Virus record (IMG/VR): IMGVR_UViG_3300046492_000369
Location: 1-64,000 of that record
DNA from: a virus
DNA length: 64,000 nucleotides
Strand: one strand, 5' to 3'
Within the stretch, counting starts at the first letter, position 1. Every line of letters begins with the position of its first letter. Of the stretch, positions 4,339 to 42,016 are shown piece after piece. The notes under the pieces are model-generated. The model worked only from the letters and a program-made list of their open reading frames with translations. It was not told the DNA's origin and ran no database searches. Made by a program: the position numbers and the translations under genes.

Positions 4339-6546
4339 ATGACTTGTGAAGGTAATGTCTGCGGTACAGGCGGTTGGGGCGGCCCTAAGCCAGGTGATCC
4401 GAACAATGACAGCATTCTACGGGCTACACCAGCATTCGGTGGTATCGACATCAATTTTACTTACCCAACTGTCAATCCCTATGCGCTGGCTTACACAATG
4501 TTGTACAGGGGCGTCTTACCAGACTTTGCCAACGCTATTCTCATTCAGGATGCCTTGGCTGGCAGCTACTATTTCGATCGGGTAGATCCCGGCACCACTT
4601 ATTACTACTGGATTCAGTTCGTATCGATTAACGGCACTATTGGTGATGTTATTGGCCCTGCATCAGCCCAAGCCAGGGATTCGATCGAACAGACCCTGCG
4701 TGACCTGACTGGCAAGATAGATGCAGGTGTGCTGGCGCAAGCCCTGAAGACAGAGATCGCAAGGATCCCTGAAATCGATGACAAGATCTTTCAGGAGATT
4801 GAAGACCGACTCAGCAGTAATCAAGCTTTGTCCAATGCCATTGCACAGGTACAGAACGTGTCGGATGAGACACTGAGCTATGTACAGCAAGAGATCACCC
4901 AACGGCAGGATGCCGATGGTGTGTTGGCTGAATCGATCAATACCTTGTTCGCCCAGATGGCAGGCAATGCTGCAGCCATCAATGAGGAAAAGCTGGTTCG
5001 GGTCAGCAAGGATGACGCCCTGTCGCAGCGGATTGACACCCTGGCTACATCTTGGGGGCCAGACATTGCTGCTGCTATTGCGATCGAACAGACTGCCCGG
5101 ACCAATGCAGATGGAGCGTTGGCTCAGGACATCACGACCTTATTTACCCGGACGAATGACAATGCAGCAGCCGTCATTGCCGAGCAAACTGCCCGTACTA
5201 CGCATGAAGGCTCGGTAGCCACCACAATTGCTGACTTGTACACCAAGCATGGGGAAGCCCTGTCGGCGGTGGATACGGAACGAACATCCCGTACAAGCGC
5301 TGATAGTGCCCTGGCTTCGGACATTACTACCCTGTTTTCCCGGGTAAGTGGTGCTGATGCGGCGATTCAATCCACTAATCAAGCCATTGTAGATGCTGGT
5401 GTGGCAACAACCAGCCAGATCAACACAATGCGGACCACGATCAATGGCGATATCACGAATGCCATAAATGGGGAAGCTGGTGCCCGTAATGCTGCAATTT
5501 CCTCTGCAGTGCAATCGGAAGCCAATACCCGTTCTGCCGCAGACTCAGCCTTGTCCCAGCAGATTACTACGGCCGAATCGTCCATGGGCAGCAATCTAAC
5601 CCAAGTTCAGACGCTATTGCAGACAAATATCGACACAACCAACGGTAAATTGACTTCAATTGGTGCTTTGTACACGGCTAAGGTCAGTGTAAATGGCTTG
5701 ATTGGTGGTTTCGGTGTCTACAACGATGGTAGTGAAGTCGAAGCAGGGTTTGATGTTGATCGTTTCTGGGTAGGCCGAACTAACGACGACAAGATTAAGC
5801 CATTCATCATCGATAGCGGCACTGTCTACATCAATGAAGCAGTGATCCGGCACCTTGAAGTGGAAAAGATCACCAGTGGTAGTGTTAATTCGGAATGGCG
5901 CATCCGTGGTCTGGGTGGACGGATCGTCATGGACACCGGGGCAGTGATGAAGGTAATTGGTACTGGTTTTGGTGCCAACAAGGATCTCATCGAGTGGTTT
6001 GGTCCCAGTATGCCGATTGAAGCCTGTACGAAAGCCAATGCCACGATTTATGAAGCAATTGATGGTAGTGCCTACTATGGTGGCGCACTCCGGGCAGGTA
6101 CCTTGTACAACGCCCAACGTACTACACAGACTGCTGCTAATGCTCAAGTTCCTCTTGGTCCATTCTGGTCTAACGGTAATCCGAGGGTGCTGGTCGTTAG
6201 CTATACCTTCAACTGGGAGATGTTGAATAACAATGCTGGTTCGACTGGGTACCAATACCAAGGAGGGGATACTTACGCCGATATCCAGCTCTGGAAAGGG
6301 AATACCATGGTGTCTTCCAGCAGAATGACGGGAAGCTATACCATTGATAACGATCTGAGTGATCCAGACAGCGCCAGTATCAGCATTGGTGGTTCTTTCA
6401 CCTTCACGGACACAGGCCCAGCCGGTAACTATTCATACAGCGCTGTTATTGTGTCGCGGAGCCTGGCAAACATCACTCATAGCTCTGGAGCCAACACCTC
6501 TTCAAATATCACGCAATCACTGGGCATTGTGAGTACTGAAGCCTGA
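4339..6546 (+). CDS. tail tip / host-specificity protein (coiled-coil repeats plus DUF1983-like region)
   Basis: start ATG 4339 after GAGGAG; FnIII-like YYYWIQFVSING; ~32-aa E..AR..AD.ALA..ITTL repeats; YTAKVSVNGLIGGFG...FDVDRFWVG...PFIIDSGTVYI. Confidence 0.75.
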   Translation: MTCEGNVCGTGGWGGPKPGDPNNDSILRATPAFGGIDINFTYPTVNPYALAYTMLYRGVLPDFANAILIQDALAGSYYFDRVDPGTTYYYWIQFVSINGTIGDVIGPASAQARDSIEQTLRDLTGKIDAGVLAQALKTEIARIPEIDDKIFQEIEDRLSSNQALSNAIAQVQNVSDETLSYVQQEITQRQDADGVLAESINTLFAQMAGNAAAINEEKLVRVSKDDALSQRIDTLATSWGPDIAAAIAIEQTARTNADGALAQDITTLFTRTNDNAAAVIAEQTARTTHEGSVATTIADLYTKHGEALSAVDTERTSRTSADSALASDITTLFSRVSGADAAIQSTNQAIVDAGVATTSQINTMRTTINGDITNAINGEAGARNAAISSAVQSEANTRSAADSALSQQITTAESSMGSNLTQVQTLLQTNIDTTNGKLTSIGALYTAKVSVNGLIGGFGVYNDGSEVEAGFDVDRFWVGRTNDDKIKPFIIDSGTVYINEAVIRHLEVEKITSGSVNSEWRIRGLGGRIVMDTGAVMKVIGTGFGANKDLIEWFGPSMPIEACTKANATIYEAIDGSAYYGGALRAGTLYNAQRTTQTAANAQVPLGPFWSNGNPRVLVVSYTFNWEMLNNNAGSTGYQYQGGDTYADIQLWKGNTMVSSSRMTGSYTIDNDLSDPDSASISIGGSFTFTDTGPAGNYSYSAVIVSRSLANITHSSGANTSSNITQSLGIVSTEA

Positions 6547-6570
6547 TTTACATCATTTAACCGCCTAACA

Positions 6571-6602
6571 GTGGACTTGTAGCCAACAAGCCACGGTTTT
6601 CT
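6571..6602 (+). terminator. possible terminator
   Basis: GTGG-ACTTGT/ACAAG-CCAC imperfect stem followed by GGTTTTCT. Confidence 0.4.
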
Positions 6603-6675
6603 GCGTTAATTAATGAGCACTGCAACGAATTGTTGTGGGACAATAGTGCTTACTGTAAATAAAGCTGGAGCCTGC

Positions 6676-7491
6676 ATGACGCCCGTATCGATGCAATTCC
6701 TTACTTCAACCGGAGAACCCATCGCGCATGCTCCGGTTGAGATCCGGCTCGCCCGCTCCGACTACGATGAAGCCCAGTCAGGCATCATCATGCCCCGACT
6801 GGTCACGGCAACGACGGATGAACAGGGCGAAGCCACGGTGAACCTGACGCCCTGTGACACGATGTATCACGTCACGGTTTATGACACGCTTAGTGATGCA
6901 GCGTTGCATTACGACTTCTATGTACCGACGCTGGATGTACCAGGAACGACGGTACGTCTGCAGGATATCGTGGTGGTCAAGCCCATCTCGCCCAAGAAAT
7001 ACGACGAGACAGCGTTGCTGGCCATCCAAAATGCCAAGGCCAATACGCTTTCGGCAATGCTGTCGGCTGAACAGGCCCGGGATGCCAGCATTACGGCCGC
7101 CAGCGATGCAGCGGACAGTGCTCGCTTAACTATCCCAACCACTTCCGCACTACCTCCGGACAATCCCCTGGAAAACCAAGAGTGGATCAACACGACCAAT
7201 GGCAAGCGCTTCAACTGGTTGGTTACGAATGGTCATGGGGCGTGGGTTGAAACCTACGCTTCCGTGGTCGTCAACACTCCTGATGCGGCAGCCATTCCGG
7301 CAGGTGTCGATGCGGAAGAAGTGGTTGCCATCGTTACGGAACAAGGAGTGCAAGTCACCGATCTGGAACTGGTGCAGTCCTTGGCTTCCACCGACATCCT
7401 GACCATTACCCAGCAAGATGGAGTAGAACGCCGGGTTACATTGGCAGAACTGGCTGCCATGATCGATCAGATCAATCGCGGTATCGCTTAA
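6676..7491 (+). CDS. virion protein, probable fibre adaptor
   Basis: ATG 6676 after GGAG; beta-rich N-domain (ATTDEQGEATVNL), Ala-rich helix, P..P....W.NT..G...W module, C-terminal DL...L..TD.L...Q.G..RRVTL module; position in the tail block. Confidence 0.55.
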   Translation: MTPVSMQFLTSTGEPIAHAPVEIRLARSDYDEAQSGIIMPRLVTATTDEQGEATVNLTPCDTMYHVTVYDTLSDAALHYDFYVPTLDVPGTTVRLQDIVVVKPISPKKYDETALLAIQNAKANTLSAMLSAEQARDASITAASDAADSARLTIPTTSALPPDNPLENQEWINTTNGKRFNWLVTNGHGAWVETYASVVVNTPDAAAIPAGVDAEEVVAIVTEQGVQVTDLELVQSLASTDILTITQQDGVERRVTLAELAAMIDQINRGIA

Positions 7492-7517
7492 TTAATCATT
7501 CACTATAGAGGCTCATC

Positions 7518-7985
7518 ATGGCTGTAGGACCAATTGTCATTCCCCAGAAAGCTGACTTCAATTTCGTCAATGCCACTAATCTGCTGGCTGCCAACCCAGC
7601 CAACTTCAAGCTGATGCTGGTAGGTTCCGGCTGGGTACCCAACAATGCAACCGACGAAGTAATTGCCGACATCGGTGCCAATGAAATCGCTGCAGGTAAC
7701 GGCTACACAGCCGGTGGTACAGCACTGACTAACGTCAGCTTGGCGCTGGTAGCTGGTAAAGCCAAGTTCACCTGCGATCCTGTAGTGTTCAATGGAACTG
7801 GTGCTGGTTTCCCAGCCTGGCGACGGGGTGTGTATTACTACAATGGCACACTCAACGGCAAAGTTAATCCTATCGTTGGACACTTTCTTGGTGATGCCGC
7901 ACCAGCTGATGTTCCGGCCACGACGCCTGCCAATTCGCCATTGACGATCACTCCTAATGCTGCTGGCTTGCTGACGGTAGGTTAA
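7518..7985 (+). CDS. small beta-rich virion structural protein
   Basis: FKLMLV...NEIAAGNGYTAGG.AL pattern seen in phage fibre-associated proteins; SD GAGG. Confidence 0.55.
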   Translation: MAVGPIVIPQKADFNFVNATNLLAANPANFKLMLVGSGWVPNNATDEVIADIGANEIAAGNGYTAGGTALTNVSLALVAGKAKFTCDPVVFNGTGAGFPAWRRGVYYYNGTLNGKVNPIVGHFLGDAAPADVPATTPANSPLTITPNAAGLLTVG

Positions 7986-7987
7986 TC

Positions 7988-8308
7988 ATGGAATGGGCCA
8001 GCGGTAATATCTTCATACGTCCAAATCCTCTGCCGAAAGCAGGGGATCAGGTGCAAGGGCATGCGCATAACTTTGACCACACGACTATCGCATTCAAAGG
8101 CGCTATCAGGGTCAAGCGCACACTTACCGATGGCACTGTACAAACCGTCGATCTGGTCGCGCCTGCTCATTGCCTGATCGAGGCTGGCGTGGAGCATGAG
8201 ATCACCGCTTTGGAAGATAACAGCGTGTTCTGGTGCGTCTACTCGCATCGCGAACCGCAGGGCGACATCGTGCAGGACGTGACTGGCTGGTCGGAGGCGT
8301 ACCAATAA
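7988..8308 (+). CDS. cupin-fold protein
   Basis: GHAHNFDHTT...KG and IEAGVEHEITALED cupin motifs 1 and 2. Confidence 0.75.
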   Translation: MEWASGNIFIRPNPLPKAGDQVQGHAHNFDHTTIAFKGAIRVKRTLTDGTVQTVDLVAPAHCLIEAGVEHEITALEDNSVFWCVYSHREPQGDIVQDVTGWSEAYQ

Positions 8309-8703
8309 TGGCCGAGCTTCTGGTGCGCGTGTTTAGCAAATCAAGTACTGACCCGGCGCAGGACGCTAAGCTCACCAAGCGTGGCGACGTGATCGTGGTC
8401 GTCCCTGACGGCTGGGGATGGTCGGATATCGAGTGCACCAATCCACACTGGCGCATCTTCAAGTGGCCGAGCGTGACCGAATCGGAGGCAAGTGCGCTGC
8501 TCACACCCGAACTACCCATCTCTGAAGCGGATGTGGATAACCCGCTGCTGCAACGACGTGGTTTTAACCTAAACCTTGATGCTGCGATCCTACCTGCCGC
8601 GTTGAAGGCGTACCTTGCTGACGATAGCCGTGTACAGCCGTTCTTCAACGTGCCTGCGCAGGTAACGCTGGCGAGCATCAAAGCCAAGAAAGCACGGCGT
8701 TAA
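8308..8703 (+). CDS. hypothetical protein of the tail block
   Basis: TAATG coupling at both ends, SD GGAGG; MAELLVR...KRGDVIVVVPDGWGW. Confidence 0.7.
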   Translation: MAELLVRVFSKSSTDPAQDAKLTKRGDVIVVVPDGWGWSDIECTNPHWRIFKWPSVTESEASALLTPELPISEADVDNPLLQRRGFNLNLDAAILPAALKAYLADDSRVQPFFNVPAQVTLASIKAKKARR

Positions 8704-10865
8704 TGGCAACGATCACCTCTACCATCGGCACCGCCAGCCGTAATTATTCGACCCTGCAGGCTTGGGAAGATGCCCTGCCTGCCAGCGCAGTTGCGGCAGG
8801 CAATGACTACGTCGGTGAGGTCTACAAGGACAGCGAGTTTGTTGTAGCGCTGCCGCTGATCATTGCTGGCATCGTGACTGACGCGACCCACGGAATTACG
8901 TTGCGAGCAGCGGCGGGACAGTCGTTCCGTAATAATGCCAATGTGCGAACCAACGCACTGCGTTACAACGCGGCCAACGGTGTGGCGATTCGGGGCACGT
9001 CCGGCTACAACTCGGCCATTGAAATCCAGGGCGTGCACTATGTCACGTTCGACGGGCTGCAGATTGCCCACCAAAACAATGGGCGGGCGATATTCTCCTC
9101 GGGCGCGACGCCTGGTTCCAACACAACAGTGCAGAACTGCCTGTGCGAGGCACCCGGTTCTTTCGCGTCTGGACTGCGGATCGACGGCGCTAATGCCGTT
9201 GTGAGAAATACGCTGGTCGTAAATACCGGAAGCGGCCTTGCAATGCAGATGACCGGGGCAAATGGCAAGCTGCACGGCAATACGGTGGTCAAGACCGGAA
9301 CGGCGGCAGTAACAGGCATTCAGGGCAATTCGTCAACCGAAATCCGCAACACGGTTTCAGCCAACTTTGCTACCTGTTTCACCGGCATGACTGCGGCTAA
9401 TTGCTCGAACAATGCTTCGACCGATGCCACCGCACCTGGCGCAAATTCTAAGACTGCACTGACACTGGCGAGCCTGTTCGAGGCACCTGGCACCGATTAC
9501 CGCACAAAATCTGGTTCTGCGCTGATTGACGCAGGTACGGTCGTGGGCTTGGCGGTAGACATCAGCAACACCGCTCGTCCACAGGGTAGTGCCTATGACA
9601 TCGGCGCATGGGAAGTAACTGCACCAGCTACGTCTGGCTTTACGTTCGTCCGCAGCTCTAGTGCTCGAATCGATAGCGATACAGGGGCACTATCCAGTCC
9701 CGCTACCGCACTGACGGCGGGTAACCATGTGTTCGTCCACATTCGATGGGAAAGTGGTGATGCTGACCCCGTCATTAGTGACACGGCAGGTAATACCTAC
9801 ACCATTCTCCCGTCTAATATGTCGCAACGGGGAGCGTGTGGTCGTTGGTTCTACTGCCTAAACGCCAAGGGTAATGCAGCGAACTCGGTTTCTGTCACGC
9901 TGACGCCTGCACGTTTCTACCGATCTATCCGGGTGTTGGAGTTCTCAGCGGCCAGTGCTGCATTCGACAAGCAAGTAGTCGGTGATAACGGTGTAGGTGC
10001 CACGACAGTAGCCACCCCGGCATTTTCAACTACAGGTGCTGGCCTGGTACTGGTCGGTGAATCGAGCTATGACGGTGATGCTGGCAGCAATTTTGGTGCA
10101 GCCTACACCTCGCTGCCGGTATCGGTACCGTTCTCGAACGAAGCGTACTGGATCACAACAGGGCCGCTGACCAATGAGGTCATCACATTCACGGATACGC
10201 AGTACACGCAGCGTAACATCGAGGCTGTTTCATTTGTAGCTGCAGCACCCGGAACAAGTCTTACACCTGTTACTGCAGCACTTGCAGTCACGGGTTATAG
10301 CCCTTCCGTTGCACAAGCACGCAATCTTGCTTTGGCTAGCAGCACGGTAGCCACAACTGGCTATGCACCCAATGTAGCCCAAGCTACCCGGCTGAACATT
10401 GATACCGGGGTAGTGGGTGTCATGGGCTATGCTCCCAGCATCGCTCAAGCCAGTAATTTGAATCCACTCACCGGAGTGGTTGTCGCCACTGGTTTTGCAC
10501 CAAGCATTGCCCAAGCTACCAACCTCTTCGTCGATGCAGGAAGCTCGCCTGTACAAGGTTACGTACCTGCGATCGCTCAGGCAGTCAACCTGTTTCCGGA
10601 TACGGCAGCATCTGAGGTTACTGGTTTTGCACCTTCAGTAGCACAAGCCAGCAATCTGGTATTGCCTGCCACGACCCAGAATGTGACAGGGTATGCACCC
10701 ACGGTACAGCAGGCATCAGCTCCCCTTGTTCTTGCACCGGCCACAGTCAGCACATTGGGTTACGCCCCGGGTGTCCGACACAAACCAGTGTTGGTAATCC
10801 GTCTGGCTTCAAATGGTAAGCCGCTCCTACGTAATAACAAACCTGCGCTCCTCTACAGCAAATAA
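8703..10865 (+). CDS. receptor-binding protein: right-handed beta-helix, beta-sandwich domain, C-terminal 22-aa repeats
   Basis: YSTLQAWEDA start, Asn-ladder turns (VQNC, VRNT, HGNT, IRNT, SNN), SALIDAG...RPQGSAYDIGAWE cap (choice-of-anchor Q-like). Confidence 0.7.
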   Translation: MATITSTIGTASRNYSTLQAWEDALPASAVAAGNDYVGEVYKDSEFVVALPLIIAGIVTDATHGITLRAAAGQSFRNNANVRTNALRYNAANGVAIRGTSGYNSAIEIQGVHYVTFDGLQIAHQNNGRAIFSSGATPGSNTTVQNCLCEAPGSFASGLRIDGANAVVRNTLVVNTGSGLAMQMTGANGKLHGNTVVKTGTAAVTGIQGNSSTEIRNTVSANFATCFTGMTAANCSNNASTDATAPGANSKTALTLASLFEAPGTDYRTKSGSALIDAGTVVGLAVDISNTARPQGSAYDIGAWEVTAPATSGFTFVRSSSARIDSDTGALSSPATALTAGNHVFVHIRWESGDADPVISDTAGNTYTILPSNMSQRGACGRWFYCLNAKGNAANSVSVTLTPARFYRSIRVLEFSAASAAFDKQVVGDNGVGATTVATPAFSTTGAGLVLVGESSYDGDAGSNFGAAYTSLPVSVPFSNEAYWITTGPLTNEVITFTDTQYTQRNIEAVSFVAAAPGTSLTPVTAALAVTGYSPSVAQARNLALASSTVATTGYAPNVAQATRLNIDTGVVGVMGYAPSIAQASNLNPLTGVVVATGFAPSIAQATNLFVDAGSSPVQGYVPAIAQAVNLFPDTAASEVTGFAPSVAQASNLVLPATTQNVTGYAPTVQQASAPLVLAPATVSTLGYAPGVRHKPVLVIRLASNGKPLLRNNKPALLYSK
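10251..10781 (+). repeat. eight tandem ~66-nt (22-aa) coding repeats, consensus AxNL-x9-TG(Y/F)APSVAQ
   Basis: read directly from the translation of 8703..10865. Confidence 0.9.
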
Positions 10866-36695: not shown

Positions 36696-37937
36696 TCAGG
36701 ACAATGCATAATTACTTCCCCTGATTAGTTGCCCCAAGTTGTTATTCAGTTTGGTGTAGGTACCTGGCACACCATGAATCTGGCTCAGAATGTCAGCCAG
36801 CAGCTCGCTCTCAGCCAGCTCAGCAAAGATGTTGATGTAGTGTTGGCGCAGGTGGTTCATGTGATTACCGCCACACTTGAACTCGTCATGGACGGTCACC
36901 ACTGGGAAGGGCTTGTGCTTCAACATCGAAAACACGATACCAGTCAGCCCTTCTAAATGCTGCGTGGAGAGCTGGTGCACGTTGTTGTCATTGACGTATG
37001 GGAGGATCACGACATCAGCGATGCCACTACGGTTGTACTGCTCGATGTAGTAGGCCAGCTTGGTGCCAGCCTTCACATCCAATGCCGTGCAGCTGTGATT
37101 CTGGCGTATGCTGAGCTCTGCCATCATTACATCGTAGGCATTGTTCGCCATGGCTTCATCATAGTTGCAGCGACGCTGGATGCAGCGCAGGATGTAAGCA
37201 TCGACACTGTGGATCACATTGGCAGCATTGGCCCGGCCCTTCTCTTCCGGTTCATTGACAGCAAAGTTGTAGGTGAACGAGGTGTGATCGAGCTCATCAA
37301 TCTCGATGCGCGCGTCCTTGTCTACCATGACCTTGATCCGCGCATCATACCCGTCCGGCAGCTTCCATGCATGTACCAATGCATGAGGTTGCCAAGAATC
37401 CAACAGTTCCTGTAACAGGATCCACGCCCCTGGTCCGATGATGCTGGCTGCTTCATAGAAGGCTGCCAGTTCCGGGGTATCTTCCCCGAAGATCTTCTTC
37501 GGTTCAGCCTTGGAGCCATACAAGGACTTCATGTAGGCATCCTTGGAGTCGTTCCTGCTTACCCCTGTGCTGACACCGAGGATGTCCTTCATGACCTCAT
37601 TGAGCTCAGTATAGGCATCCGACCGCACATTCGGATCAACCAAGCCAGTGGCAGTAGCGCCCTTGATGCAGCCAGTGAGCACGCTCATGATCTGCAAGCC
37701 AGAACAGCAGGCATCCAGTCCAACCAGATGGCCGGTTGGTTCACCATTCAATACCTTGCGGATGGTCAGTACCGCCTTCATATACAGCGGCTTCTTGTCT
37801 GCTTTATCTGCCAATGCTTCTAATTGATGCAGGTTGTTGTTAGCCCATTCGATACGTTCTTCGAACAGCAATTTATCCAAGCCAAAATGATTAGCCAAAT
37901 CAATCAGCAAGTATTCCCAGCCTGAGTATAAAACCAT
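36696..37937 (-). CDS. N4-type RNA polymerase II subunit 2 (gp16-like)
   Basis: FGLDKLLFEERIEW, GLDACCSGLQ (A), RNDSKDAYMKSLYG (B), NVIHSVDA, VHDEF (C). Confidence 0.95.
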   Translation of the reverse strand: MVLYSGWEYLLIDLANHFGLDKLLFEERIEWANNNLHQLEALADKADKKPLYMKAVLTIRKVLNGEPTGHLVGLDACCSGLQIMSVLTGCIKGATATGLVDPNVRSDAYTELNEVMKDILGVSTGVSRNDSKDAYMKSLYGSKAEPKKIFGEDTPELAAFYEAASIIGPGAWILLQELLDSWQPHALVHAWKLPDGYDARIKVMVDKDARIEIDELDHTSFTYNFAVNEPEEKGRANAANVIHSVDAYILRCIQRRCNYDEAMANNAYDVMMAELSIRQNHSCTALDVKAGTKLAYYIEQYNRSGIADVVILPYVNDNNVHQLSTQHLEGLTGIVFSMLKHKPFPVVTVHDEFKCGGNHMNHLRQHYINIFAELAESELLADILSQIHGVPGTYTKLNNNLGQLIRGSNYALS

Positions 37938-37949
37938 GTTATTTCTCCT

Positions 37950-38180
37950 TTATAGTGGAATGTTCAGTACTAAGCAGAGCATCTTGATCTCTGCCGGGAT
38001 ATCTGAAAGATTAATTGGACTGGTATGGGATACCGTTATTACGCGGTACCAGAATGCAGATTTATTGCCCCAATGATGTCCAAGCTTTTCTCGAATGATA
38101 GCGCCATAAGGAAGAAACTTTGGCCATTCATCGTATTCTCCATACAGTTTGCCTTCGTAAAACACGATAACCTTAGCCAT
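37950..38180 (-). CDS. paralog array member 5
   Basis: MAKVIVFYEG...FWYR...IPAEIKMLCLVLNIPL; SD AAGGAG. Confidence 0.8.
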   Translation of the reverse strand: MAKVIVFYEGKLYGEYDEWPKFLPYGAIIREKLGHHWGNKSAFWYRVITVSHTSPINLSDIPAEIKMLCLVLNIPL

Positions 38181-38189
38181 AAGTCTCCT

Positions 38190-38408
38190 TTATAGATTCA
38201 ATACCAGTGCCAGCATTTGAGTTTTCTTAGGTACATTATGTACTGGGATAATTACTCCATCGGTGTTATACCAATTAGTTGGAATACCCATCAATGGTTG
38301 ATAAGTACGATTGAACACATAGATATCATCTCTACATTCTGGTAGATCGTACCAATGATTAGATGATGCTATTACTTTGTCATTCTGAAATACTGTGAAG
38401 AGCGCCAT
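38190..38408 (-). CDS. paralog array member 4
   Basis: MALFTVFQND...NWYN...VPKKTQMLALVLNL; SD AGGAG. Confidence 0.8.
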   Translation of the reverse strand: MALFTVFQNDKVIASSNHWYDLPECRDDIYVFNRTYQPLMGIPTNWYNTDGVIIPVHNVPKKTQMLALVLNL

Positions 38409-38416
38409 GTAATCTC

Positions 38417-38653
38417 CTATAGATTTAATACCAATGCCAGCATCTGTAATACCTTGGGTACATCCTCGATTAATACTGGTGTCTTATCTGATCTGTACCA
38501 TCGAGTGTATTTGTTTTCTGGGACATGGACATAAGCACCGTTATAGACCTCGTGATAATCCTCCATGGATCGTAGATATTGGTGATATTCCTTCCAGCTA
38601 TCGAACTCACCGAATACCTGAGTTCCATAGAAGACCACTAATTGCTTTGCCAT
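38417..38653 (-). CDS. paralog array member 3
   Basis: MAKQLVVFYG...RWYR...VPKVLQMLALVLNL; SD AGGAGG. Confidence 0.8.
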   Translation of the reverse strand: MAKQLVVFYGTQVFGEFDSWKEYHQYLRSMEDYHEVYNGAYVHVPENKYTRWYRSDKTPVLIEDVPKVLQMLALVLNL

Positions 38654-38661
38654 GTAGCCTC

Positions 38662-38904
38662 CTATGGATAGACCAATGCGGTCATCTGATATTGTTTAGG
38701 TACTTCACCCAATTCCAATAGTTCCCATTGATTGCCTTTGTCACGTCCAAGCGTACTGTAGAACACACGCACCCATGCCCATTCAGTTCCAATCTTCTGA
38801 CATGCGATGGTATCTACAGGTAATCCATAAGGCCGAGGCAGTGTTTGTACCACCAGCCCCAGCACCCTGCCATCCGGGTAGAACAGGATGAGATTTGATG
38901 CCAT
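38662..38904 (-). CDS. paralog array member 2
   Basis: MASNLILFYPDG...AWVR...VPKQYQMTALVYP; SD AGGAG. Confidence 0.8.
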   Translation of the reverse strand: MASNLILFYPDGRVLGLVVQTLPRPYGLPVDTIACQKIGTEWAWVRVFYSTLGRDKGNQWELLELGEVPKQYQMTALVYP

Positions 38905-38913
38905 TGGTTTCTC

Positions 38914-39195
38914 CTATGGATGGACGAGTGCGATCATCTGGAACTTCTTAGGTGGATCAGCACGACCGGGACCATAATGAACCCAATCTATCTGAAGAGA
39001 CTTATCTGATTGGCTCCAGCTTGCCATTCTTAATTGGCTCCATGGATCTTGTAATGGATAACCTTTTAGTTCAGGGTTATATGCCCATGTACCAATCGGA
39101 TGGTCTATCTTATTGGGATATCCCATCCCTGCATATTCCACAATGGTTCCATCAGGATAGAACAACAGCAGTCTAGTAACCACTTGGTACCCCAC
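38914..39195 (-). CDS. paralog array member 1
   Basis: ...RLLLFYPDG...PWSQ...PPKKFQMIALVHP; GTG start inside the 3' end of the RNAP subunit 1 gene. Confidence 0.75.
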   Translation of the reverse strand: MGYQVVTRLLLFYPDGTIVEYAGMGYPNKIDHPIGTWAYNPELKGYPLQDPWSQLRMASWSQSDKSLQIDWVHYGPGRADPPKKFQMIALVHP

Positions 39196-40111
39196 TCAAA
39201 TATTCCTGATCAGCTAATTCGATCATGGCTTTCTTGAAGGCTGCTCCTTGTGGATTAATGTGATAACCCTGCGAGTAGATCCGACCACGCTTGTCTACCT
39301 TATGGGTCATGTAGAATACATTCCCCTGGCTGGCCATCAGGTCATACATCTGGTAGCTGTGACGCTTGAACATCTTCCAGTTGTCGATCTTCTCCGGTGT
39401 ATCCAACTCATGCGTAGGCTCCTCTTCCACCTTGCACAGAAAGTCCAGTGCCAAGCTCAGTGGTACACGATTCATCAGGTTTAGCACATCGAGACACAGA
39501 TCCCCATCGTGATGGTTACCTGATCCCAATACCAATGAATCATTATGGGTCAGATAACCAGAGCAGAAATTACTCTTCAATTCCAATGGCTCAATCACCA
39601 TGGGAGGCAGGCACCGGCTCTCTTCAATGAAGGTGATCAGTTTCTCGCTAAGTGGCATCCTGCTGATGATGCACAGGCTAGCCATGCGATCGGGCTTCAC
39701 GATATCGAAGGCATCGGTATTACACAGTACGGCAATCAGTTCAGCAATGGTAGTAATGGCTTCCACCTTGTCACTGAACCGTAAACGTGATGCCATCTGA
39801 GCCGTTACTGCCGTGAACAGTTCTTCACGCTGGCAATAAGCAATACCAACGAAGATATCAGTCACCAGTACTTCAATGTCCATGTTCTTGAGCTGAGCAA
39901 CACGGGTATTCTTGGAAGTGAACTCCTTGGTTTCACCATTCTTGGTGGTATAGGTGTAATGCGTATTAATATATTGTTCCACCAGCTTGATACCCTGCTG
40001 GACCTTCTTCTGCATGATGGGATCCGTTTGAATTGCATCACGGATATATCCATCAATATGCTTGCGATTGAATCGCTTTTCATTGTGCTCTTGTACGATG
40101 TAATGGGACAT
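39173..40111 (-). CDS. N4-type RNA polymerase II subunit 1 (gp15-like)
   Basis: LPPMVIEP, SGYLT, DVLNLMN, FYMTHKVDKRGRIYSQGYHINPQG (DxRGR motif). Confidence 0.94.
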   Translation of the reverse strand: MSHYIVQEHNEKRFNRKHIDGYIRDAIQTDPIMQKKVQQGIKLVEQYINTHYTYTTKNGETKEFTSKNTRVAQLKNMDIEVLVTDIFVGIAYCQREELFTAVTAQMASRLRFSDKVEAITTIAELIAVLCNTDAFDIVKPDRMASLCIISRMPLSEKLITFIEESRCLPPMVIEPLELKSNFCSGYLTHNDSLVLGSGNHHDGDLCLDVLNLMNRVPLSLALDFLCKVEEEPTHELDTPEKIDNWKMFKRHSYQMYDLMASQGNVFYMTHKVDKRGRIYSQGYHINPQGAAFKKAMIELADQEYLSGVPSGY

Positions 40112-40321: not shown

Positions 40322-40338
40322 CAATATGCCCGGAGGGC
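40322..40338 (-). promoter_or_regulatory. vRNAP hairpin promoter (template is the + strand), upstream of the RNAP II operon
   Basis: + strand CAATAT-GCCC-GGA-GGGC; matches the N4 C-GGA-G triloop with C at predicted +1 (40322). Confidence 0.7.
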
Positions 40339-40412: not shown

Positions 40413-40447
40413 AAAAAGAACACCACCTTCCCCGAAGGGAAGGCGGC
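40413..40447 (-). terminator. intrinsic terminator
   Basis: minus strand GC-rich stem with TTCG loop followed by TTCTTTTT. Confidence 0.8.
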
Positions 40448-40456
40448 AGCAGCATA

Positions 40457-40732
40457 TTACTCAGGCAGATCGAAGCCAGCCGATTCATCCGATACAGCCG
40501 GGTTGTACTCAACTTGCAGTTGAGCCAGCAGTACCTTGATGCGCTCCGGATCAGCCATCAGCCAGTCAGCCAGAGTGGCTTCGTTGGCATAGGCTTCACG
40601 CAGGGTGATGGCACCCAGCTTACGACGGCCACCATCCTTCTTCGGCAGGTAGAAGTTCAGGTAGCCCACGGCCTTCTTGTTGGCCGGGATATTGTTGGAA
40701 CGAGCAGCAGCAGCAGGGCGATTGAATGCCAT
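40457..40732 (-). CDS. conserved early protein, possibly an ssDNA-binding RNAP II cofactor (N4 gp2 analogue)
   Basis: GYLNFYLP...RRKLGAI.L, acidic/aromatic C-terminus GFDLPE; last gene of an early unit; function is inference. Confidence 0.55.
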   Translation of the reverse strand: MAFNRPAAAARSNNIPANKKAVGYLNFYLPKKDGGRRKLGAITLREAYANEATLADWLMADPERIKVLLAQLQVEYNPAVSDESAGFDLPE

Positions 40733-41999: not shown

Positions 42000-42016
42000 T
42001 CATACAGCCGGAGGCT
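42000..42016 (-). promoter_or_regulatory. vRNAP hairpin promoter
   Basis: + strand CATAC-AGCC-GGA-GGCT in an intergenic region after a terminator. Confidence 0.65.

What the first reader, a model, noticed from the sequence alone, without database searches (positions are those of the whole stretch)
37950..39195. Five diverged paralogs in tandem between the two RNAP II subunit genes
Seen: five 72-93-aa ORFs share an N-terminal hydrophobic strand ending (V/L)F(Y/Q), a central Trp, and a C-terminal P(K/A)xx(Q/K)Mx(A/C)LV helix, while their middles differ in sequence and length. Every junction, including the one into subunit 2, reads C(C/T)ATA(A)n-GGAG-N4-8-ATGG, with the stop fused to the next RBS. 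The block is AT-richer than its flanks. Inference: a gene accordion with a constant scaffold and variable surface, whose conserved 3' ends could seed recombination, expressed early with an essential operon. This fits a diversifying anti-defence or host-takeover family, or swappable RNAP II partners.
Basis: partly seen in the sequence, partly recalled or inferred. Interest (0 to 1): 0.78.

Follow-up and report, generated by a model that had tools for sequence, protein, structure and literature searches.

The report
Undescribed small-protein gene array beside phage RNAPII
Five old, diverged copies of an unnamed ~75-residue protein sit between the two RNA polymerase II subunit genes of an N4-like phage. 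They belong to an undescribed family that related phages carry in 1 to about 18 tandem copies, and its function is still unknown.

Summary
Five minus-strand ORFs (72-89 aa) between the N4 gp15-like and gp16-like RNAPII genes are true paralogs. They share an N-terminal strand, an invariant Trp and a C-terminal P-x-x-x-(Q/K)-M-x-x-L-V helix. Stop codons are fused to the next Shine-Dalgarno site, and GC3 is lower than in the flanking genes.

A profile search of 1.84 billion proteins found about 44 further full-length members. All are metagenomic and have no name, Pfam or PHROG family. In related N4-like contigs the same slot holds 1, 2, 3 or about 16 copies. Distant members form runs of up to about ten (phCDa) and seven (Littlefix) genes just upstream of RNAP1 in these cultured Pseudomonas phages.

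Two AlphaFold models (pLDDT 93.5 and 87.8) share a hairpin/hairpin/C-helix scaffold with a variable middle. No solved structure matches.

The copies are ancient. Three subtypes (A, B, C) keep their order across genomes, and one close ortholog pair has dN/dS 0.11. This is birth-and-death evolution, not a recent accordion.

The phage has its own Drc-like RNAPII cofactor upstream. Function is unproven. My best guess (about 0.45) is early-made, mostly acidic binders of host proteins, for takeover or counter-defence. The scan has noted this only on this same stretch, not on other DNA.

The parts
39173..40111 (-). RNAPII small subunit (N4 gp15 / RNAP1-like), 312 aa
   Evidence: PHROG 2166 'N4-like RNA polymerase' 8.7e-95. 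45-48% identical to RNAP1 of Pectobacterium and Pseudomonas Schitoviridae.
38914..39183 (-). Paralog p1 (subtype A), 89 aa from GTG 39183. The ORF extends to GTG 39195. Its start overlaps the RNAP1 stop (39173-39175).
   Evidence: A public gene call of 89 aa exists (P0003). AlphaFold pLDDT 87.8.
38662..38904 (-). Paralog p2 (subtype A), 80 aa
   Evidence: BLASTP to p1 2e-8. Groups with p1 and L014_1 (92/86) inside the wider subtype-A group with L008_1 and L026_A (86/92).
38417..38653 (-). Paralog p3 (subtype B, closest to the family consensus), 78 aa
   Evidence: 51% identical to L008_2. AlphaFold pLDDT 93.5, pTM 0.82.
38190..38408 (-). Paralog p4 (subtype B-like, most AT-rich: GC 0.36, GC3 0.30), 72 aa
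   Evidence: BLASTP to p3 1e-9. Composition.
37950..38180 (-). Paralog p5 (subtype C, ends ...MLCLVLNIPL), 76 aa
   Evidence: 53% identical to L008_3. Groups with L008_3 and L026_C (90/91).
36696..37937 (-). RNAPII large subunit (N4 gp16 / RNAP2-like), 413 aa
   Evidence: PHROG 2051 5.5e-149 and Pfam PF00940 1.3e-14. 51% identical to LUZ7 RNAP2.
37935..37958 (-). Junction p5 to RNAP2: CTATAAAGGAGAAATAACATGG. The same stop-SD-start design occurs at 38178-38198, 38405-38425, 38650-38670 and 38901-38922.
   Evidence: Read. Alignment of the five junctions.
40457..40732 (-). Drc-like ssDNA-binding RNAPII cofactor homolog, 91 aa (context, not a family member)
   Evidence: 31% identical to LUZ7 gp14 (Drc), E 1e-11. 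PDB 6QLC 'ssDNA binding RNA Polymerase cofactor' E 0.0015.
40421..40448 (-). Intrinsic-terminator-like hairpin (12 bp stem, T-run) upstream of the RNAPII operon
40328..40338 (-). Candidate N4-type early promoter hairpin GCCC-TCC-GGGC (GGA loop on the template strand). It lies between the terminator and the 55-aa ORF that precedes RNAP1. Inference only.
   Evidence: A similar AGCC-TCC-GGCT lies at about 42005-42016. As a bare pattern it is not enriched over chance.

Best explanation
The five ORFs are real protein-coding genes. They are old paralogs of a previously undescribed small-protein family of N4-like (Schitoviridae) phages.

Fold. Each makes a roughly 9-kDa, mostly acidic, aromatic-rich alpha/beta mini-domain. 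An N-terminal beta-hairpin and a second hairpin are predicted. The conserved hydrophobic C-terminal helix (h-P-x-x-h-x-M-x-x-L-h) presumably packs against them, with the conserved F/Y, W, P and L residues in the core (inferred; no coordinates were inspected). The segment between the hairpins varies freely in length and sequence and is the likely binding surface.

Expression. The genes are translated from the same early polycistronic mRNA as the two RNAPII subunits, through fused stop-Shine-Dalgarno-start junctions. They would therefore be made in the first minutes of infection.

Evolution. The family evolves by gene birth and death at a hot spot next to the RNAPII genes. An ancestral A-B-C cassette became A-A'-B-B'-C here. 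Relatives hold 1-3 copies, and one holds about 16-18.

Inferred function, not shown: each copy is a stoichiometric binder of a different host protein, for host takeover or counter-defence. The repertoire is therefore accessory and host-specific, not part of the polymerase.
For: Shown:
- Paralogy and motifs.
- About 44 further full-length relatives among 1.84e9 representatives, all metagenomic and unnamed.
- No Pfam, PHROG or PDB family.
- Confident models with a shared scaffold and a differing middle.
- No solved fold relative: best Foldseek E 0.64, best VIA Z 4.1.
- Copy number in the RNAP1|RNAP2 slot: 5 here, 3 in L008 and L026, 2 in L014, L015 and L025, 1 in L016 and L017. L018 has about 16 in the slot (15 intact ORFs, one of them doubtful, and one with an in-frame stop) plus 2 upstream of RNAP1.
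- Distant members in cultured phages. phCDa_42 scores E 2.6e-7 and Littlefix gp52 9.7e-5 per whole record, with no hit outside the arrays next to RNAP1.
- BFVD fold hits for both models are dominated by Schitoviridae proteins, with probabilities up to 0.94 and 0.91.
- Purifying selection: dN/dS 0.108, against 0.12-0.13 for the RNAP genes.
- The genes are dispensable for RNAPII as such. Pectobacterium phage CB3 and Enterobacter phage SABI have RNAP1 and RNAP2 directly adjacent. Other phages carry unrelated cargo in the slot.
- A separate Drc-type cofactor is present.
- Accessory-gene signature: GC3 of 0.30-0.53 against 0.48-0.75 for the RNAP genes, in all six genomes checked.
- Mostly acidic (median pI 5.5) with 14% aromatic residues. 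This does not look like a basic DNA binder.

Inferred: early timing, from N4 biology, operon structure and a candidate hairpin promoter. The host-target binding role rests on analogy with other small early phage ORFans.
Against: No target, interaction or phenotype is known for any member.

The arrays abut RNAP1 or RNAP2 in every genome examined, across several genera. That could mean a functional tie to RNAPII instead of to host proteins.

The one measurable ortholog pair is under purifying selection, not diversifying selection. The copies are ancient. Neither is the classic signature of an ongoing arms race.

No library of anti-defence proteins was available to test against.
Confidence: 0.45

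Rival explanations
1. RNAPII accessory or specificity subunits. The conserved face (C-terminal helix) docks on the RNAP1/RNAP2 heterodimer. The variable middle tunes promoter choice, processivity or coupling to other factors. Different copies would then be swappable partners of the middle-gene polymerase.
For: Every array found touches an RNAPII gene: between the subunits in the metagenomic clade, and directly upstream of RNAP1 in phCDa, Littlefix and L018. Translational coupling to both subunits would give matched amounts. p1 overlaps the RNAP1 stop.
Against: Many Schitoviridae have adjacent RNAP1 and RNAP2 with nothing between them, or carry unrelated genes there. Copy number runs from 1 to about 18. 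The phage already encodes a Drc-type cofactor. LUZ7 RNAPII was purified and studied as a two-subunit enzyme plus Drc (PMC7145618). The proteins are mostly acidic and not DNA-binder-like.
Confidence: 0.2
2. Another phage-internal role unrelated to host proteins or RNAPII. Examples are hetero-oligomeric early scaffolds, regulators of the phage's own AAA+ ATPases or replication proteins, or superinfection exclusion.
For: The hydrophobic-rich conserved C-terminal helix could be a common docking or oligomerisation element. Paralogs are kept in a fixed A-B-C order in several genomes, as expected if they work together.
Against: No evidence for any specific partner. Single-copy phages (L016, L017) manage with one member.
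Confidence: 0.2
3. A recent 'gene accordion' in the poxvirus sense: a fresh tandem amplification under acute selection, with recombination between the conserved 3' ends driving rapid expansion and contraction.
For: Tandem layout, uniform junctions, and 79-80% DNA identity over 43-46 nt between the p3/p4 and p1/p2 3' ends. Large differences in copy number between genomes.
Against: The copies are 22-36% identical. Branch lengths are about 1 substitution per site. Orthologs in other genomes are closer than neighbours in the array. No long exact repeats were found.
Confidence: 0.05
4. Non-functional filler ORFs, or gene-calling artefacts, in an AT-rich spacer.
For: Small size, low GC, no annotation anywhere.
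Against: Core residues are conserved across about 60 very divergent sequences. dN/dS is 0.11. Fold predictions are confident. Every copy has a Shine-Dalgarno site and an ATG or GTG start.
Confidence: 0.03

Closest known systems
Hypothetical proteins phCDa_39-48 (Pseudomonas phage phCDa, MH382836) and gp49-56 (Pseudomonas phage Littlefix, MG775260)
   Same: Tandem runs of 70-115-aa proteins next to RNAP1, most ending in the same h-P-x-x-h-x-M-x-x-L-h helix. Profile hits occur only there in the whole records. They are the top fold matches in BFVD.
   Different: Very distant in sequence: profile E 1e-7 to 1e-3, hhalign P 7e-6 over the C-terminal 25 columns. Most lie upstream of RNAP1, not between the subunits. 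They are often longer. They are likewise uncharacterised, so they give no function.
LUZ7 Drc (gp14) / N4 gp2, the known RNAPII cofactors
   Same: Small early proteins of N4-like phages encoded near the RNAPII genes. Drc binds RNAPII (PMC7145618).
   Different: No sequence or fold similarity: the PDB profile search did not find 6QLC. Drc is basic (pI 9.16 per the paper), whereas this family is mostly acidic. Drc is single-copy. This phage has its own Drc homolog at 40457-40732.
LUZ7 gp21 (phrog_30755, unknown function)
   Same: Occupies the same slot between RNAP1 and RNAP2. By eye it has LIFF..., WFWGY and SVPKEVRLM motifs.
   Different: No statistical support for homology: hhalign probability 0.4%, and no profile hit in the LUZ7 record. 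It carries a C-terminal extension.
Small early host-takeover ORFans of N4-like and other lytic phages (for example N4 gp8, an inhibitor of host replication; from my own knowledge, not checked here)
   Same: Size, early expression, accessory distribution and lack of database homologs.
   Different: Those are single genes with a shown target. Here there is a multi-copy family with a shared scaffold and no known target.
Poxvirus K3L-type gene accordions and multigene families of large DNA viruses (from my own knowledge)
   Same: Tandem paralogs whose number differs between related viruses.
   Different: Accordion copies are near-identical and recent. These copies are ancient and retained in a conserved order.

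Membership tests
N4 RNAPII heterodimer genes (gp15-like RNAP1, gp16-like RNAP2) as the flanks | Significant match to the N4-like small- and large-subunit families and to the T7-like RNA_pol domain | tested here: met
   PHROG 2166 8.7e-95; PHROG 2051 5.5e-149; PF00940 1.3e-14.
The new small-protein family (profiles A3/A9) | N-terminal hydrophobic strand ending F-Y/Q, conserved central Trp, C-terminal h-P-x-x-h-x-M-x-x-L-h helix, length about 65-110 aa | tested here: met
   All five copies have them. All five score 4e-7 to 1e-25 against the profile. About 44 outside members were found.
The new small-protein family | Shared predicted fold among subtypes | tested here: met
   p3 reads b-b-a-a-b-b-a and p1 reads b-b-(short h)-b-b-b-a, with the same first hairpin, later hairpin and C-terminal helix. 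Models were compared by secondary-structure order only, not superposed.
Drc / N4 gp2 type RNAPII cofactor | Sequence or fold relationship to Drc (PDB 6QLC); basic, ssDNA-binding | tested here: not met
   The family profile against PDB does not recover 6QLC. Median pI is 5.5. The true Drc homolog is a different gene.
Recent gene accordion (poxvirus type) | Near-identical tandem copies | tested here: not met
   22-36% amino-acid identity. The longest DNA repeats are 43-46 nt at about 80%.
Recent gene accordion (poxvirus type) | Copy-number differences between close relatives | tested here: inconclusive
   Copy number differs (1 to about 18), but only between phages whose RNAP2 is 57-68% identical. 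No close relative of this genome could be fetched.
Known anti-defence protein families | Match to a characterised anti-defence protein | not testable with these tools
   No anti-defence library was on hand. Pfam, PHROGs and PDB give nothing.
Any solved protein fold | Clear structural match | tested here: inconclusive
   Best Foldseek PDB E 0.64. Best VIA-align wide Z 4.1.

The most novel reading that the evidence does not exclude
The family is a phage-encoded, expandable repertoire of mini-binders built on one scaffold. The conserved hydrophobic C-terminal helix would dock all copies onto one common hub: the RNAPII heterodimer they are co-translated with, or another conserved phage or host machine. 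The hypervariable middle of each copy would recruit or block a different partner. That would make it a modular adaptor system whose repertoire (1 to about 18) is tuned to the host. It would explain why arrays always abut the RNAPII genes across Schitoviridae genera.
Probability: 0.12. Interest if true: 0.85.

Novelty: new variant of a known kind. Interest (0 to 1): 0.6.

Why it matters
Small early phage ORFans are the main source of new host-takeover and counter-defence proteins, but most are singletons that are hard to prioritise.

This one is different. It is a whole family with a confident compact fold, a conserved core and a free-varying surface. Copy number ranges from 1 to about 18 at one genomic hot spot. 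Distant members exist in cultured Pseudomonas phages (phCDa, Littlefix), so genetics and biochemistry are possible now.

If the copies bind different host targets, the family would be a ready-made panel of natural inhibitors and a case study of birth-and-death evolution in a phage. If they bind RNAPII, they would be a new class of regulators of the N4-type middle polymerase.

The work also shows that the RNAP1|RNAP2 gap is a general cargo slot in Schitoviridae.

Tried and rejected
- Complex prediction with RNAP1 + RNAP2 + p3 (own alignments): no verdict, score 0.00 in both runs. This is neither support nor evidence against binding.
The 75-79-kb Logan/JGI contigs carrying P0053, P0055, P0061 and P0091 could not be fetched, so no close relative of this genome was available for gain/loss or site-wise selection tests.
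- The look-up of sequencing runs: one DNA holder, a rhizosphere metagenome that is possibly the source sample. No RNA holder is listed.
- megablast of the locus against cultured phages: no match. tblastn of p3: only chance hits with E of 4 or more.
- The search for related loci with the full alignments failed for lack of a conserved 7-10-column stretch. The narrower subtype-B alignment worked.
- ESM Atlas: no informative cluster, best feature score 0.80.
- LUZ7 gp21 as a family member: rejected for lack of statistical support. ZC08 gp78 matches only weakly (E 1.5e-3 in a small database; no hit in the whole-record searches).
- The hairpin pattern GCCCTCCGGGC is not enriched in the window, so the promoter call is only a lead.
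- Literature searches found no description of this family.
- dN/dS between the window and its nearest relative was not attempted. Orthologs are only about 50% identical, so synonymous sites are saturated.

Full report
**What is there.** The window belongs to a complete 77,041-bp virus record with direct terminal repeats. The region is transcribed on the minus strand. ORF 39173-40111 is the N4 gp15-like RNAPII small subunit (PHROG 2166, 8.7e-95). ORF 36696-37937 is the gp16-like large subunit (PHROG 2051, 5.5e-149; Pfam RNA_pol). Its nearest cultured relatives are Schitoviridae of Pseudomonas and Pectobacterium, at only 45-51% identity. Between the two genes lie five ORFs of 72-93 aa.

**Check of the observation.** The alignment of the five shows the claimed N-terminal strand (..LFY..VFY..VFQ), an invariant Trp, and the C-terminal P-(K/A)-x-x-(Q/K)-M-x-(A/C)-L-V motif. 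The middles are variable.
- Pairwise BLASTP links them well beyond chance: p1-p2 2e-8, p3-p5 2e-12, p3-p4 1e-9, p2-p5 1e-3.
- Profiles find exactly these five places in the whole genome.
- All five junctions, including the one into RNAP2, read C(C/T)ATA(A)(A)GGAG-N4-8-ATGG, so each stop codon is fused to the next Shine-Dalgarno site.
- p1 most likely starts at GTG 39183, as in a public gene call (P0003), and overlaps the RNAP1 stop.
- The block is AT-richer: GC 0.36-0.48 and GC3 0.30-0.47, against GC3 0.57 and 0.65 in the RNAP genes.
- No terminator-like site lies inside the array, and only one weak sigma-70-like match does.

**A real, unnamed family.** A profile of the five, run against 1.84 billion representative proteins, gave 48 hits at E up to 1e-3.
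- About 44 of them are full-length proteins of 65-109 aa.
- Their consensus is M..yTVFYg.q.ygEy...(variable)...e.YnGaY...WYR.D.TPVLlEDVPKELrMLaLlLn.
- A second database search shows all of them are metagenomic, with no source name and no Pfam domain. Several sit on 75-79-kb contigs, the size of an N4-like genome.
- No member matches any PHROG or Pfam family, and the profile finds nothing in the PDB.

**Fold.** AlphaFold2 with the family alignment gives confident models.
- p3: pLDDT 93.5, pTM 0.82, with strands 5-9 and 12-17, helices 20-28 and 33-39, strands 40-45 and 50-54, and helix 67-75.
- p1: pLDDT 87.8, with strands 4-8, 14-18, 33-35, 48-57 and 62-69, and helix 79-87.

Both share the first hairpin, a later hairpin and the C-terminal helix, and they differ in the middle. 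This fits a constant scaffold with a variable surface. I compared the order of secondary-structure elements only and did not superpose the models.

No solved structure matches (best Foldseek E 0.64; best VIA-align Z 4.1). In BFVD the best matches of both models are uncharacterised proteins of Schitoviridae Pseudomonas phages: 98PfluR60PP, phCDa (several), Littlefix, ZC08, AM.P2 and phi176. Probabilities reach 0.94 and 0.91, although each E-value alone is weak (taxonomy).

**Copy number and the slot.** I examined the RNAP1|RNAP2 interval in related contigs.

| Locus | Family copies in the slot | Other content |
|---|---|---|
| This window | 5 | none |
| L008 (RNAP2 67-68% identical) | 3 | one unrelated ORF |
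| L026 | 3, in order A-B-C | none |
| L014 | 2 | none |
| L015 | 2 | one unrelated ORF |
| L025 | 2 | one further copy upstream of RNAP1 |
| L016 | 1 | none |
| L017 | 1 | an unrelated 105-aa ORF |
| L018 | about 16 | two further copies just upstream of RNAP1 |

- The L018 slot holds 15 intact ORFs (one of them, 6907-7191, lacks the conserved Pro and is doubtful) and one carrying an in-frame stop.
- The divergent L018 groups match the main family by profile-profile comparison, with P 1e-5 to 5e-5 over the C-terminal module.
- Elsewhere the slot is empty (CB3, SABI) or holds unrelated genes (LUZ7 gp21, ZC08 gp73, a 97-aa ORF in L011, five ORFs in L012). The gap between the two polymerase genes is therefore a general cargo site.

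**Cultured phages.** phCDa has a run of small genes (phCDa_39-48) immediately upstream of RNAP1, and four more between RNAP1 and RNAP2. Littlefix has gp49-56 upstream of RNAP1. Most of these end in the same h-P-x-x-h-x-M-x-x-L-h helix.
- A six-frame profile search of the whole records hits only these arrays: phCDa_42 at 2.6e-7, phCDa_46 at 1.8e-3, Littlefix gp52 at 9.7e-5 and gp56 at 1.9e-3.
- hhalign of the cultured group against the family gives P 7e-6 over the C-terminal 25 columns.
- None of these proteins has a PHROG.
- LUZ7, CB3 and ZC08 give no whole-record hit.

**Age and mode of evolution.** For p1, p3, p4 and p5 the best match is a copy in another genome, not a neighbour in the array.
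- A tree separates subtype A (p1, p2, L008_1, L014_1, L026_A and the two L018 upstream copies; support 86/92) from subtypes B and C.
- It recovers subtype C (p5, L008_3, L026_C; support 90/91).
- Terminal branches are about one substitution per site.
- The order A-B-C recurs in L008 and L026, and A-B in L014. The window reads A-A'-B-B'-C.
- The only close ortholog pair (L016 and L017, 90% identical) has dN/dS 0.108 at dS 0.47. That matches RNAP1 (0.122) and RNAP2 (0.134).
- DNA repeats between the 3' ends are 43-46 nt at 79-80% identity.

This is long-term birth and death of constrained genes, not a fresh accordion.

**Function.** Nothing ties the proteins to a known activity.
- They are mostly acidic (median pI 5.5) and rich in aromatic residues, unlike the basic ssDNA-binding cofactor Drc (PMC7145618).
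- The phage has its own Drc homolog at 40457-40732. A strong terminator-like hairpin follows it, and then a candidate N4-type hairpin promoter ahead of the RNAPII operon. The promoter call is inference only.
- Low GC3 relative to the flanking early genes holds in all six genomes checked, an accessory-gene signature. Low GC in Schitoviridae early regions generally is noted in PMC8472413.

I therefore favour early, co-translated binders of host proteins (takeover or counter-defence) at about 0.45. RNAPII-associated factors come second at about 0.2, because every array found touches an RNAPII gene. Another phage-internal role is about 0.2.

**Novelty.** Arrays of small early ORFans are a familiar kind of thing in phages. 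This superfamily, its fold, its anchoring next to the RNAPII genes and its 1-to-18 copy range appear undescribed: the databases hold no family for it, and five literature searches found nothing. The scan has noted this stretch before only on this same genome.

Noticed in passing
L017:7000-8319: In this relative the RNAP2 gene is split. tblastn matches residues 1-252 at 6277-7026 and residues 240-413 at 8319-8846. A 330-aa ORF (7307-8299) lies in between. This is probably an intron or intein with a homing-type gene.
   Followed up: no
L019:1403-3177 and 4536-4949 (Pectobacterium phage CB3, CB3_013-018 and CB3_023): A different tandem family of 89-137-aa proteins upstream of RNAP1 shares a [DE]-x-[IL]-R-T-x-x-L-L motif near the N-terminus. 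Paralog arrays beside the RNAPII genes therefore seem to recur in Schitoviridae. Seen by eye only.
   Followed up: no
window 40457-40732 (-): Homolog of LUZ7 Drc, the ssDNA-binding RNAPII cofactor (31% identity, E 1e-11; PDB 6QLC E 0.0015). Similar G-Y-L-N-F-Y-L proteins lie upstream of RNAP1 in L018 (1501-1794) and, more weakly, in CB3_021.
   Followed up: partly
L011:4693-4986 (and the same slot in L009): The 97-aa ORF between RNAP1 and RNAP2 in these relatives looks by eye like a helix-hairpin-helix domain of the RpoA-CTD type. It is unrelated to the family studied here.
   Followed up: no
L018:5724-5998: A family member with an in-frame stop between its N-terminal half and its C-terminal ...IPDEDLGYFKMKMMLMG half. 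It is a likely pseudogene inside the 16-gene array, consistent with gene death.
   Followed up: partly
L008:4811-4996 and L015:6189-6422: A conserved, unrelated 61-77-aa ORF (...HYYSG...ITK(E/Q)QAM.FFNL...) sits directly before RNAP2 in two relatives and is absent from the window.
   Followed up: no
L017:5684-6001 versus L008:6267-6578: The 105-aa ORF in the L017 slot is clearly similar by eye (LPPWAI, GAQL.TRDGRRCGNAHII, VLRKFDR) to an ORF that lies downstream of RNAP2 in L008. Small early genes move around the RNAPII genes.
   Followed up: no
window 40328-40338 (-) and about 42005-42016 (-): Two short hairpins with a TCC loop (GGA on the template strand): GCCC-TCC-GGGC and AGCC-TCC-GGCT. The first follows a strong terminator-like hairpin at 40421-40448. 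They are candidate N4-type virion-RNAP early promoters. The bare pattern is not enriched over chance.
   Followed up: partly
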